This document shows positions 35,286 to 58,939 of a DNA stretch of 64,000 nt, piece by piece. Origin of the DNA: Octopus sinensis. Lineage: Eukaryota. A program made the position numbers and the translations under genes. Position 1 is the stretch's first letter. The number at the start of each line of letters is the position of its first letter. The DNA lies in contig NC_043007.1 in assembly GCF_006345805.1 (NCBI RefSeq), positions 17,484,001 to 17,548,000 on the forward strand. The letters run 5' to 3'. The notes beneath the pieces are model-generated. The model saw only the letters and a program-made list of their open reading frames with translations, searched no databases and was not told the DNA's origin.

Positions 35286-35540
35286 AATTCTTCATCTCTT
35301 ATCTATTCAAATTTATTCTTGTTCATCAATAAAAGAAGCACCCAGGTGGTCACACAGCCTGCAAGATATAGCAGTAGATTACACCTACCATCTTGAACAA
35401 GGAATATTGGATAATGTAGACTTAGATATATTATTGTAGTGAAGTGTAGAATTGAAACTGTATTAGCTCAGTAACGAGAGATAGGCCACAGCACATCAAC
35501 CAATGCTCAGCGTATTGGTCAGCACATAATATTTCAGCTG

Positions 35541-35772
35541 TAGGGCGGCGAGCTGGCAGAAACGTTAGCACGTTGGGCGAAATGCGTAACCGTATTTCGT
35601 CTGCCATTACATTCTGAGTTCCAATTCCGCCGAGGTCGACTTTGCCTTTCATCCTTTCAGGGTCGATTAAATAAGTACCAGTTACGCACTGAGGTCGATG
35701 TAATCGACTAATCCCTTATCTGTCCTTATTTGTCCCCTCTGTGTTTAGCCCTTTGTGGATAGTAAAGAAATA
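35541..35772 (+). mobile_element. Family A SINE
   Basis: Full-length; flanking duplication TATAATATTTCAGCTGTA. Confidence 0.85.
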
Positions 35773-36919
35773 TAATATTTCAGCTGTAATCATTCAATTG
35801 TATGATTTCAAATGGAATTTTCCATGACTTCCTGCAAACACTTGCTTATAAATCAAGATGTGCACCACAATCAAAAGAGAGAAAGGAATTAGCAATTGTG
35901 AGAAGACAGATTCTTTTGGTTTCTGCTTGTTCCTGGGTTAAATAGAATCATTTGTCTGCCATGAACGTATAATTTTCCCACCTCTCACAACATGAATAAG
36001 TACCTATTTAATTTCGTTTTGGGATTTGGTTTGCAAGATTCTTTATGTGAGTTCGTGTGTTGAAGCATATCTTGTTGTGTCTGGGGAGAGTCATTGCTTT
36101 TTGTGCCTTATAATTTAATACACTCACTGGTAAAATCTCCACTTATTTCTTATTTCTATTTTCCTAAAATTTTTGTTGCATCTTGCGACCTTTTCAATTT
36201 AGCCAAAACACATCATATATTCATGATTCCGTACTGGTAAACAATGATACAACCTCAAGCAAGTAAGCATTGTAAATATAGAAAAGCTTATGTACAAATG
36301 AACAGATTCATCAAAAATTTAAAATGGACTTGGATGTATTTAGGAAACAGCACGCAGCAAAATTCATCCCAACCAATCACTAAACCCCCACCCCCCAGCT
36401 AACCAAAATCCCTCCAAACCATATCTGAAAATATAGCATGATGGTCATGGCTAGAGAGCCATTGATCATAGGTTTGCTCACTCAGATTGACCTGGGATTA
36501 AACAACAACAACAGCCATTGAAGGCAGTATTCTACCATGGCCATGACTGTAATAAATTAATGCACTACAGAACACTAATTACTCAGGTAAGAAGCCTTCC
36601 CTCATTACCAATATCTTTTAACTGGCCTCATTCAAATATCCAGCTAATTAATTTCCGGTTTTCATCCAAGTCTGCCATTCATAACAAGCAGGGAAATTTA
36701 GGGAAATCCCATGTGGAAATTATTTTTATCACATTATTTTTGCTAAATTTATTTTTGGAGGAGGTTACTGCTAATTTTATACAATAAATTGCGTTGCATA
36801 CCAGACTGCATTTTTCTTATATGTAGCTGGGACTAGAAAAACAAAACAAAAAGGCTACAAAGAAAGACTACTAGCTAAATAGTTATTTTCAAATCTACTA
36901 TGATTAACATAAAATCGCT

Positions 36920-36928
36920 TGAGTCAGC
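36920..36928 (+). promoter_or_regulatory. AP-1 / ARE-like motif TGAGTCAGC
   Basis: Matches TGA(C/G)NNNGC with an AP-1 core, 22 bp upstream of the ERSE. Confidence 0.45.
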
Positions 36929-36950
36929 TCGGCGAGGTGCCAGATAGCAG

Positions 36951-36969
36951 CCAATAGAAACAACCCACG
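36951..36969 (+). promoter_or_regulatory. ER stress response element ERSE-I (CCAAT-N9-CCACG)
   Basis: CCAAT-AGAAACAAC-CCACG, exact consensus and spacing, ending 125 bp before the ATG of an ER-luminal protein gene. Confidence 0.75.
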
Positions 36970-37093
36970 TTAACTGGCACTGGTTAAACACTTGAACACA
37001 AGCATCGCAGTGAAGCGCTGAAAAAAAAGAAAAGAAGGGAGGTAACCCCGTACTACTAGACAGTTGTTAGTTGCCGAGGAACATCGTGGAAGC

Positions 37094-37279
37094 ATGTTGT
37101 CCCGCAATCTTGTCGCAGGTTTCCTCTTCCTGGTTTGTTTATTAAATCTAATTAAGGCCGAAGCCGATGTGAAAGAACAGAGTTCGGAGGCAAAAGATAC
37201 AGCGGAAAAAGTCCAAGTAGACGATGAAAAAATTGAATATGCTCGGGGTTCAGTTTGCGGCTACTGTGAATATTGTAAG
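37094..37279 (+). CDS. HRC: HRC-like cysteine-rich ER-luminal protein, exon 1 of 5 (signal peptide, acidic linker, first CxxCxxC)
   Basis: MLSRNLVAGFLFLVCLLNLIKAEADVKEQSSEAKDTAEKVQVDDEKIEYARGSVCGYCEYCK; donor AAG|GTAGGT, phase 0; GSxCGYC matches the start of the HRC cysteine-rich domain as recalled. Confidence 0.9.
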
Positions 37280-39140
37280 GTAGGTGCGAACCAGGATCGA
37301 TAAAAGCTCTTTCCTTCACTTCGTTCTGTCTATCCTTCTATCTATCCATCTATCTATCCTATCTGTCCTATCTCGACAGGCTTTATCAATGAGTCGAGAT
37401 AAGGTCTATTTTAGTCTTGATTAGGTTTATTTTAGTCCAAACATCGCCCCCACCTCACCGCATTCCTTCAACCTGTCACTGATCCCATTTTTATTGATTC
37501 CCTGTAAATTCCGGAACTTCTTGCAAGTCGACACTGCAAGGTCTTGTCCAAACATAAAATGCGATTTACCTAAAACTGTGCAACATTACTTCACGATATC
37601 ATAATCTATTTATATAAGAATTTGTAATTTTATTTCTCAACACACTTAACTGATAACTTGATATTTCCCCCCGAAATACCATTCTGTATTTATAAGAACT
37701 GGTTAAGCATGGAAAACAACTTTTCTGTTTAAAATTTATTGAAATCACGACTGTGTTTTATTTTTTTCCTTTAAAAACTTAACTGTCCGGACGATAGAAT
37801 CAGAACAGTTCTGTTTTCTATATAAGGAATTGGTCAGTTCATTCATTTGAGGTTTTGGAAATGGCGATGACGGTTGAGAACGCCTCTGTTGTTGTCTGTG
37901 TTTTATTTAGTTTAATACAACCATCTCTTGTGTTCGAATTCCGCCATCATCAATTTGGTACCGATGAAACAATTTACCAATAATATCTTGCAGTCGATGG
38001 AATAACTACAAGTCATACTATTCTAATCGATTAAAGTACCAATAATACACCGCTGGATCGATGAAATTAAGCACCTCTAATATTGCAGGCTTCTCTGTCG
38101 ATCAATTTGATTGTGTGCCTAGTATAAAAAAAAGAAATCAGAAACCCCATAAATCTATATATTTGAATATGTTACAAAATGCTGTAGATCTCCTTATTCC
38201 GTTGATAAATTCTACCATGTTCCTCGTTTTTAAATTCCTTTTGTAAATGTCAATTCCTGATTACTTGGCCTTTTATGAAATCTCTCTGCGAATCTTGAAA
38301 TTCCTCAACATCTTTCAGGCTTGTAAATTCCTTTAGAATCTTCCCATGCCTCTTTATAAACTTCATCTTATCACATACAGATCCCCCCATATCTAACCTA
38401 ATCTCGCCATAAATCTTGTTATCAGCTCTGACCAAAAATTCGGTAATCTACTTTTCAAACTATGACGCTCCTTAAAATAATTGGAAACAATCTGTAACGA
38501 CTTCAATCGGTTCTTTTTCACCTGTGTGCAACAAGATAAGAAGAACGTCAAACAATATTTACAAGTTTACTTAAGCTGTCATAACATACATATATATATA
38601 TACACATGCATATATTCATTTAACACATCTAATCCATTTATGTCCCGATACTTCCTACTCATTTTTTTTATTTATGTTTCAATTAACGTTGACATTTGTT
38701 AAATTACTTTTCGCGCATGTGTGTGTGTCCTAAATAAATTCCTATAGACCGGATGTTTCATGCATTACGTTATGTAAGCGATGATGATGGTGCCTGGTAA
38801 TAATAATAATCGTCGCGGCGGTGATTGATGACAACTATCATCATCGATATTGCGATATTGGCTTTTTTGGCTGTTCCTGGGTGAACGCCGCAGTGCAGAA
38901 GAAAGACGCACCCTTCGAACTATGCCGGCGACCTAATTTCGACCACCGATTACGGGAACACAGTATTTCTATTCACAGGCTTTGGGGCGTCGTGCAGGAC
39001 GATCAACTTATTTCAATACCCTTCATTCACTCTTAAACTTTAAGAAACTAATATGGATTGTCTTACAGTGTTTAGTTATTGCCTTTTTACGTTCTAAGTT
39101 CAAATCCCGACGAAGCCAACTTTGATTTCCGACTAATACT

Positions 39141-52987: not shown

Positions 52988-53059
52988 TTCTGCAGCCTCT
53001 GTGATAAAGACTGCCCCTGTTTAGTATCTCCTCAGAAACCCAATTGCGAAATGTGTAAA
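52988..53059 (+). CDS. HRC: HRC-like protein, exon 2 of 5
   Basis: TTTCAG|TTC...AAA|GTAAGT; FCSLCDKDCPCLVSPQKPNCEMCK, 72 nt, phase 0-0. Confidence 0.9.
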
Positions 53060-53966: not shown

Positions 53967-54021
53967 TATTGTAAATACTGCTATCTTTGTTCAGCTGTCT
54001 GTGACACCTTCTGTAAACCTG
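53967..54021 (+). CDS. HRC: HRC-like protein, exon 3 of 5
   Basis: TTCCAG|TAT...CCTG|GTAAGA; YCKYCYLCSAVCDTFCKP, 55 nt, phase 0-1. Confidence 0.9.
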
Positions 54022-56600: not shown

Positions 56601-56637
56601 GTGGATATGTTGATAAAGTATCAGCTGCTATCATCAG
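56601..56637 (+). CDS. HRC: HRC-like protein, exon 4 of 5
   Basis: TTCTCAG|GT...AG|GTAAAT; (G)GYVDKVSAAII(S), 37 nt, phase 1-2. Confidence 0.88.
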
Positions 56638-58851: not shown

Positions 58852-58939
58852 TGCATTGCCATTCCATGACACCAAGGAAATTAACAAAGATATTCACTCA
58901 ATGAAGAAGTGGATTGACAAAACTAAAGAAGAACTTTAA
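58852..58939 (+). CDS. HRC: HRC-like protein, exon 5 of 5, ending in KEEL
   Basis: Long polypyrimidine tract, CCAG|T; (S)ALPFHDTKEINKDIHSMKKWIDKTKEEL* in the phase required by exon 4. Confidence 0.88.

What the first reader, a model, noticed from the sequence alone, without database searches (positions are those of the whole stretch)
36951..36969. Perfect ERSE in the promoter of the HRC-like gene suggests an unfolded-protein-response target
Seen: CCAAT-N9-CCACG exactly, 125 bp upstream of the ATG, in unique sequence. Known: ERSE-I binds NF-Y with ATF6/XBP1 and marks ER chaperone genes such as BiP, GRP94 and calreticulin; mammalian HRC is instead known as a MEF2-driven muscle gene. Inference: the invertebrate gene may be a general ER stress or quality-control factor, pointing to an ancestral role different from muscle calcium buffering.
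Basis: partly seen in the sequence, partly recalled or inferred. Interest (0 to 1): 0.75.

Follow-up and report, generated by a model that had tools for sequence, protein, structure and literature searches.

The report
ER-stress switch on octopus KDEL-type protein
An octopus gene labelled as a muscle calcium-store protein encodes a small cysteine-rich protein with an ER-retention-type tail and protist relatives, and it carries a perfect copy of the ER-stress DNA element also seen, exact or nearly exact, before most octopus ER-chaperone genes checked, so it is likely switched on by the unfolded-protein response, though induction is untested.

Summary
The motif is real: one perfect CCAAT-N9-CCACG at 36951-36969, 125 nt before the ATG. 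Alone it is weak evidence: the genome holds 1,074 copies against 1,174 of the reversed control. Context makes it credible. The five-exon gene encodes a 145-aa protein with a signal peptide, 15 cysteines and a C-terminal KEEL; 17 of 20 close homologues end in xDEL/xEEL. It lacks the histidine-rich repeats of vertebrate HRC and has protist relatives. In the same genome, 6 of 7 ER-protein genes but 0 of 8 cytosolic chaperone genes have an ERSE with at most one mismatch within 3 kb of the ATG, peaking at a 9-nt spacer. Against a general or ancestral link: 0 of 15 distant orthologous promoters have a perfect ERSE, a coral HRC-labelled contig is outside the coral UPR module, and the start site is unmapped. 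Verdict: likely a real ATF6/NF-Y target in octopus; known element, new and uncharacterised member. The scan noted an ERSE before on other DNA (lizard calreticulin-4).

The parts
36951..36955 (+). CCAAT box of the ERSE (predicted NF-Y site)
   Evidence: NF-Y binds the CCAAT half of ERSE per PMC5890977 passages
36965..36969 (+). CCACG half-site of the ERSE (predicted ATF6 site), 9 nt after the CCAAT box and followed by T (ACGT core)
   Evidence: ATF6 binds CCACG
36970..37093 (+). Region that likely holds the main start site and 5' UTR; start not mapped
   Evidence: 5 of 6 deep spliced contigs begin at 37037-37147, 1 of 6 at 36933; contigs cannot show starts
37094..37279 (+). Coding exon 1: signal peptide, acidic linker, first Cys motif
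   Evidence: RNA-type contigs leave the genome at 37279 and continue with exon 2 letters in 6 of 6 RNA-type runs
52988..53059 (+). Coding exon 2 (Cys-rich)
   Evidence: AG/GT ends
53967..54021 (+). Coding exon 3 (Cys-rich)
   Evidence: AG/GT ends
56601..56637 (+). Coding exon 4
   Evidence: AG/GT ends
58852..58939 (+). Coding exon 5, ends in KEEL then the stop codon
   Evidence: the five exons translate exactly to P0001, 145 aa

Best explanation
The 19-mer is a perfect ERSE-I sequence directly upstream of a single-copy gene for a small signal-peptide, cysteine-rich, KEEL-ended protein, and it likely works as an unfolded-protein-response switch: NF-Y would sit on CCAAT, stress-released ATF6 would bind CCACG, and the gene would be induced along with BiP, GRP94, calreticulin and PDI. 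Shown: the motif, the gene, the protein's anatomy, the same promoter grammar at octopus ER-protein genes, and homologues from protists to vertebrates. Inferred: factor binding, induction, ER retention through the KDEL receptor, and the protein's job. My committed guess for the job is a helical-hairpin, disulfide-linked or zinc-binding module that supports ER folding or redox and calcium balance by binding a luminal partner; vertebrate HRC would have kept this module, lost the KDEL tail and added His/acidic repeats for muscle.
For: Motif exact and 125 nt before the ATG; 60 of 200,000 local shuffles. 17 of 20 close homologues end in xDEL/xEEL; in a wider set 65 of 75 start with Met plus a hydrophobic stretch and 52 of 75 end in D/E-L. 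In-genome control: ERSE with at most one mismatch within 3 kb of the ATG in 6 of 7 ER-protein genes and 0 of 8 cytosolic chaperone genes (Fisher p 0.0014; within 600 nt 5 of 7 against 0 of 8, p 0.007); calreticulin and CNPY2 have perfect copies. With an exact CCAAT, spacer 9 gives 7 hits in the ER set and no other spacer from 4 to 15 gives more than 2. An invertebrate precedent: tick ATF6 plus NF-Y drives a reporter through CCACG and fails when it is mutated (PMC12207416 passages). Only the Cys domain aligns with a vertebrate HRC-like protein (47% over 68 aa). Named protist homologues ending in xDEL: Ancoracysta, Biecheleria, Vitrella.
Against: No genome-wide enrichment of the motif. 0 of 15 distant orthologous promoters (11 distinct sequences, 347-4,145 nt upstream available) have a perfect ERSE; 1 has a one-mismatch copy. 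In coral field data the HRC-labelled contig is in module 1, not the UPR module 9; but none of 10 PDI and neither of 2 canopy contigs is in module 9 either, and whether that contig is the KDEL-type gene was not checked. One deep spliced contig starts at 36933, upstream of the motif, and shallow contigs reach over or upstream of it in 4 of 6 RNA-type runs, so the motif may be transcribed in part of the RNA. Only one ERSE is present, whereas strongly induced genes often have several. The control set is small, hand-picked, and the 8 cytosolic genes are 4 paralogous pairs. ATF6 itself was not searched for in this genome.
Confidence: 0.72

Rival explanations
1. The element is selected and bound, but gives constitutive or secretory-load-scaled expression (NF-Y plus basal ATF6, XBP1s or a CREB3-type factor) with little acute stress induction.
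For: Single copy only; coral contig co-expresses in a large general module with PDIA3 and CNPY2 contigs rather than in the heat-induced UPR module; in mouse the intact CRELD2-ALG12 intergenic region barely responded although it holds an ERSE (PMC3091781 abstract). 8 of 15 distant orthologous loci have TGACGTG, a related bZIP site, within 141 nt of the ATG.
Against: The copy is a perfect consensus, a better match than the BiP, GRP94, PDI and MANF copies in the same genome.
Confidence: 0.17
2. An ordinary NF-Y CCAAT promoter in which CCACG lies 9 nt downstream by chance.
For: About 3 chance cases per 25,000 genes within 300 nt; no genome-wide excess; absent from distant orthologues.
Against: A chance hit would rarely fall on one of the few KDEL-type ER-lumen genes, and the same spacing marks 6 of 7 ER-protein genes tested.
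Confidence: 0.07
3. The gene is a muscle sarcoplasmic-reticulum calcium regulator like vertebrate HRC and the ERSE is incidental.
For: Database name; the shared Cys domain binds triadin in mammals (PMC6171002 passages).
Against: 2 His in 145 aa and no acidic repeats, so the SERCA2-binding region is missing; no MEF2 or CArG consensus in 35500-37400; homologues in sponges and protists.
Confidence: 0.04

Closest known systems
ERSE-I (CCAAT-N9-CCACG) of mammalian GRP78/BiP, GRP94 and calreticulin promoters
   Same: Exact consensus and spacing; proximal to an ER-lumen gene; same grammar at octopus BiP, GRP94, calreticulin, PDI, MANF and CNPY2.
   Different: Single copy against three in human GRP78; A+T-rich spacer; binding and induction untested; not kept in distant orthologues.
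[quoted passage not shown]
   Same: Signal peptide and C-terminal Cys-rich domain (47% identity over 68 aa to a tortoise HRC-like protein); vertebrate rows nest inside the animal group of the tree.
   Different: 145 aa, no His/acidic repeats, KEEL tail; the 4 named vertebrate rows lack an xDEL tail. Mammalian HRC is a MEF2 target (seen only as a reference title; the paper itself was not held).
Small ATF6-induced ER-lumen cysteine-rich proteins (CRELD2, MANF, CNPY2)
   Same: Small, secretory-pathway, Cys-rich, ERSE-type promoter (CRELD2: PMC3091781 abstract; octopus MANF and CNPY2).
   Different: No sequence link found: 0 Pfam families for P0001 and only 1 of 75 family members with any Pfam hit at E 0.01. 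The likeness is one of anatomy and regulation only.

Membership tests
ERSE-I element | Sequence CCAAT-N9-CCACG | tested here: met
ERSE-I element | Located in the proximal promoter, upstream of the start site | tested here: inconclusive
   125 nt before the ATG, CpG-undepleted region; 5 of 6 deep contigs start downstream, 1 upstream; contigs cannot map starts
ERSE-I element | Precedes an ER-resident or secretory-pathway gene in a genome that uses ERSE grammar | tested here: met
   signal peptide plus KEEL; 6 of 7 against 0 of 8; spacer peak at 9
ERSE-I element | Conserved in orthologous promoters | tested here: inconclusive
   Half-sites unchanged in 95-99% alike runs, one spacer change at 36960: too close to inform. 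0 of 15 distant loci perfect: too distant, and no positive control there. Intermediate genomes not available.
ERSE-I element | Bound by NF-Y and ATF6; needed for ER-stress induction | not testable with these tools
   needs EMSA/ChIP, reporter and stress RNA data
HRC (vertebrate muscle type) | C-terminal cysteine-rich domain | tested here: met
   14 Cys invariant or nearly so in 75 sequences
HRC (vertebrate muscle type) | Histidine-rich and acidic repeat region | tested here: not met
   2 His, 22 Asp+Glu in 145 aa
HRC (vertebrate muscle type) | MEF2 site driving muscle expression | tested here: inconclusive
   no consensus MEF2 site in 35500-37400 (consensus recalled); distal enhancers and tissue expression not examined
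KDEL-type ER-lumen residents | N-terminal signal peptide and C-terminal retrieval motif | tested here: met
   hydrophobic N-terminus and KEEL; 17 of 20 close homologues xDEL/xEEL; judged from sequence, no signal-peptide predictor run
KDEL-type ER-lumen residents | ER localisation shown in cells | not testable with these tools
   needs tagging or fractionation

The most novel reading that the evidence does not exclude
The short 'HRC-like' proteins are an overlooked, eukaryote-wide family of KDEL-retained, 14-cysteine ER quality-control or redox factors with no Pfam model and no clear solved fold, wired into the ATF6 regulon, and vertebrate muscle HRC is a derived version that dropped the KDEL tail and gained calcium-binding repeats.
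Probability: 0.3. Interest if true: 0.72.

Novelty: new member of a known kind. Interest (0 to 1): 0.46.

Why it matters
The element is textbook, but it gives a first testable handle on a small protein family that databases name after a mammalian muscle protein by transfer of annotation. Its KDEL-type tail and protist relatives say the conserved domain is older than muscle. If the gene is an ATF6 target, the UPR gains a new ancient ER-lumen member and the triadin-binding domain of human HRC gains an ancestral context. The control analysis also shows that ERSE grammar, including ACACG and CCAAG variants, marks ER-chaperone promoters in a mollusc; my search for ERSE + CCAAT + CCACG + invertebrate found no paper, which covers only the open-access library.

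Tried and rejected
Pfam gave nothing for exon 1, P0001 or 74 of 75 family members. PDB sequence search: best E 0.086. Fold searches: no Foldseek match at E 0.001 for either model; VIA-align best Z 3.3, no chain at Z 5 or more; this does not show a new fold. The ESM Atlas gave only an HRC-named cluster at 0.83, a lead. A search for longer homologues with the alignment found none (weak evidence). No RNA holder was on record and no stress-treated runs could be identified. Control genes dropped before the 6-of-7 count: calnexin, a second PDI on C28, an HSPA13-like gene on C14 and a mortalin-like gene on C8854 (start codon not located; no promoter-like hit in the stretches read); a second MANF-like copy on small contig C9737 had no ERSE in 10 kb and would make the count 6 of 8 if it is octopus; the two MIR-domain loci fetched looked like calcium-channel genes, not SDF2. 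Multi-hit small unplaced contigs for calreticulin, HSP70 and HSP90 were not examined. A 39-nt loose end before 37069 in one contig had no match in the window, so no alternative first exon was found there. Paper searches that found nothing relevant to this family under ER stress. PMC11496204 passages mention oyster HRC as down-regulated in triploids, with no UPR link. PMC8364458 passages show human HRC dampening ER stress in hepatoma cells, not ERSE control. The tick ATF6-motif table (cut when stored) has no row named sarcoplasmic reticulum histidine-rich. PMC3018531 and PMC387749 were not held. One coral supplement file was not searchable. The bacterial promoter scan was irrelevant.

Full report
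Observation. The window holds one perfect CCAAT-N9-CCACG, at 36951-36969 on the + strand; 4 of 100 shuffles of the window gave one. The ATG at 37094 is 125 nt downstream with no ATG in between. The surrounding 300 nt share no 16-mer with the rest of the window and lie where CpG depletion lifts, as expected of a promoter. Shuffling the 300 nt before the ATG gave a perfect ERSE in 60 of 200,000 trials. The genome has 1,074 perfect copies against 1,174 of the reversed control, so a few genes will have one by chance (about 3 of an assumed 25,000 within 300 nt). The motif alone does not prove function.

The gene. [quoted passage not shown] All 4 genome matches to P0001 lie in this gene, so it appears single-copy. 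Contigs from 6 of 6 RNA-type runs splice at 37279 into exon 2. The protein has a hydrophobic N-terminus, an acidic linker, 15 Cys, 2 His and a C-terminal KEEL. 17 of 20 close homologues, the query included, end in xDEL or xEEL. Only the Cys domain aligns with a vertebrate HRC-like protein; the His/acidic region that binds SERCA2 in mammals (PMC6171002 passages) is absent. A search of 1.84 billion representatives found 132 relatives at E 0.001. Among 75 hand-picked full-length-looking members, 14 Cys are invariant or nearly so, 65 start with Met plus a hydrophobic stretch and 52 end in D/E-L. Of 30 proteins looked up, named ones include two sponges, a leech, four vertebrates and three protists (Ancoracysta, Biecheleria, Vitrella; E 1.6e-7 to 3.1e-6); most others carry no name. 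Cys-rich composition can inflate such E-values, but shared spacing, signal peptide and xDEL tail support homology. A tree on 71 columns (rough support) groups the named animal rows (97/85) and nests the 4 named vertebrate rows among EYL/SYL-ended forms with longer acidic linkers. AlphaFold gives two Cys-rich helices as a hairpin with pLDDT about 90 in the core; no family or fold match was found.

Does octopus use ERSE? I located genes through Pfam searches of the genome, fetched their upstream DNA and named them from the Pfam family, the signal peptide and recalled N-terminal features; these names are mine, not an annotation. Allowing one mismatch, an ERSE lies within 3 kb of the ATG in 6 of 7 ER-protein genes: calreticulin (perfect, -212), CNPY2 (perfect, -2671, before an apparent non-coding exon), GRP94 (-139), PDI (-154), MANF (-538) and BiP (tandem at -1429 and -1396, plus -358); ERp29 has none. 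0 of 8 cytosolic HSP70, HSP90 and HSP110 genes have one (Fisher p 0.0014; 5 of 7 against 0 of 8 within 600 nt, p 0.007). Only 8 further hits occur in the rest of 504 kb scanned. Hits peak at a 9-nt spacer (7, against at most 2 for spacers 4-15). The set is small and hand-picked, the cytosolic genes are four pairs, and five other genes were dropped as listed under Tried and rejected; one of them, a second MANF-like copy without ERSE, would make the count 6 of 8. Even so, the grammar is evidently in use, and a perfect copy before a KDEL-type gene fits it. Function of the grammar in an invertebrate has precedent in ticks (PMC12207416 passages). The definition of ERSE is from PMC5890977 passages and the tandem layout of human GRP78 from PMC1574359 passages.

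Results against. Metagenome contigs gave 38 loci; 15 were genomic with exon 1 and its start codon, 11 of them distinct. None of the 15 has a perfect ERSE in the 347-4,145 nt available upstream; 1 has a one-mismatch copy at -277; 8 have TGACGTG within 141 nt of the ATG, possibly inside the 5' UTR. These animals are distant and no chaperone control exists for them. In Acropora field data (PMC5342658: passages and supplementary tables) the one HRC-labelled contig is in module 1, while calreticulin, MANF, CRELD2, HYOU1 and one endoplasmin contig are in the heat-induced UPR module 9; PDI and canopy contigs also miss module 9, and the contig's subfamily is unknown. The start site is unmapped: deep spliced contigs begin at 37037, 37069, 37078, 37131 and 37147, but one begins at 36933, and shallow contigs cover 36722-37053 in 4 of 6 runs. 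Related runs are 95-99% alike and uninformative on conservation; the one change inside the element falls in the spacer, in a single shallow contig.

Mechanism. Most likely (0.72) NF-Y holds the CCAAT box and ATF6 released by ER stress binds CCACG, raising transcription together with the chaperone genes; the product enters the ER, is retrieved through KEEL and acts through a disulfide-linked or zinc-binding hairpin in folding, redox or calcium balance. Sequence anatomy and the in-genome grammar are shown; binding, induction, localisation and biochemical role are inferred. Rivals: constitutive or load-scaled use of the same element (0.17), chance (0.07), muscle-type HRC (0.04).

Novelty. ERSE-I is known and the family is in databases under the HRC name. 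I found no paper tying the short invertebrate form to the UPR or noting its KDEL tail and protist range (searches; open-access library only). This is a new member of a known kind with a worthwhile lead attached. An earlier scan note on an ERSE before lizard calreticulin-4 is a parallel case and not evidence.

Noticed in passing
G000:C1:113906488-113906539 (BiP-like), C1:53215066-53215116 (GRP94-like), C2 PDI-like promoter (L067-L070): Octopus chaperone promoters favour the variants CCAAT-N9-ACACG and CCAAT-N9-CCAAG. BiP and GRP94 have tandem copies 32-33 nt apart (the second GRP94 copy has two mismatches), and the BiP and PDI 19-mers differ at one letter.
   Followed up: partly
L004/L003, G000:C1 about 168049000-168049800: The MANF-like gene lies head-to-head with an HSP70-family gene on the other strand, with the ERSE-like site between them, recalling the mouse CRELD2-ALG12 pair.
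   Followed up: partly
L016, L021, L022, L024, L028, L033, L034, L038, L039, L046: These distant orthologues have a His/Asp-rich stretch right after the signal peptide, a small-scale echo of vertebrate HRC; many also share a CAAGAAC-N2-RAACAAGA-like stretch shortly before the ATG.
   Followed up: no
L016-L046: Introns fall after the same 'CK' codons as in octopus, supporting orthology across these animals.
   Followed up: partly
P0019, P0020, P0024, P0026, P0029, P0033, P0037, P0042: A subfamily ending mostly in KEYL/KSYL with longer acidic linkers groups with vertebrate HRC; it may be an old paralogue of the KDEL-ended form.
   Followed up: partly
G000:C1, many sites: One repeat family carries an identical CCAAT-N9-ACACG 19-mer in many copies, inflating that variant (2,426 against 1,951 control).
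   Followed up: no
window 25759 (+) and 32082 (-): Two identical one-mismatch ERSE look-alikes (CGAAT first half) sit inside a dispersed repeat.
   Followed up: no
window 37069: One deep RNA-type contig has 39 foreign letters joined next to an AG here; no source in the window. Possibly an artefact or a distant first exon.
   Followed up: partly
G000 small contigs such as C7755, C8591, C8703, C9737, C12762: Compact extra copies of calreticulin, HSP70, HSP90 and MANF families lie on small unplaced contigs; they may be another organism's DNA in the assembly.
   Followed up: no
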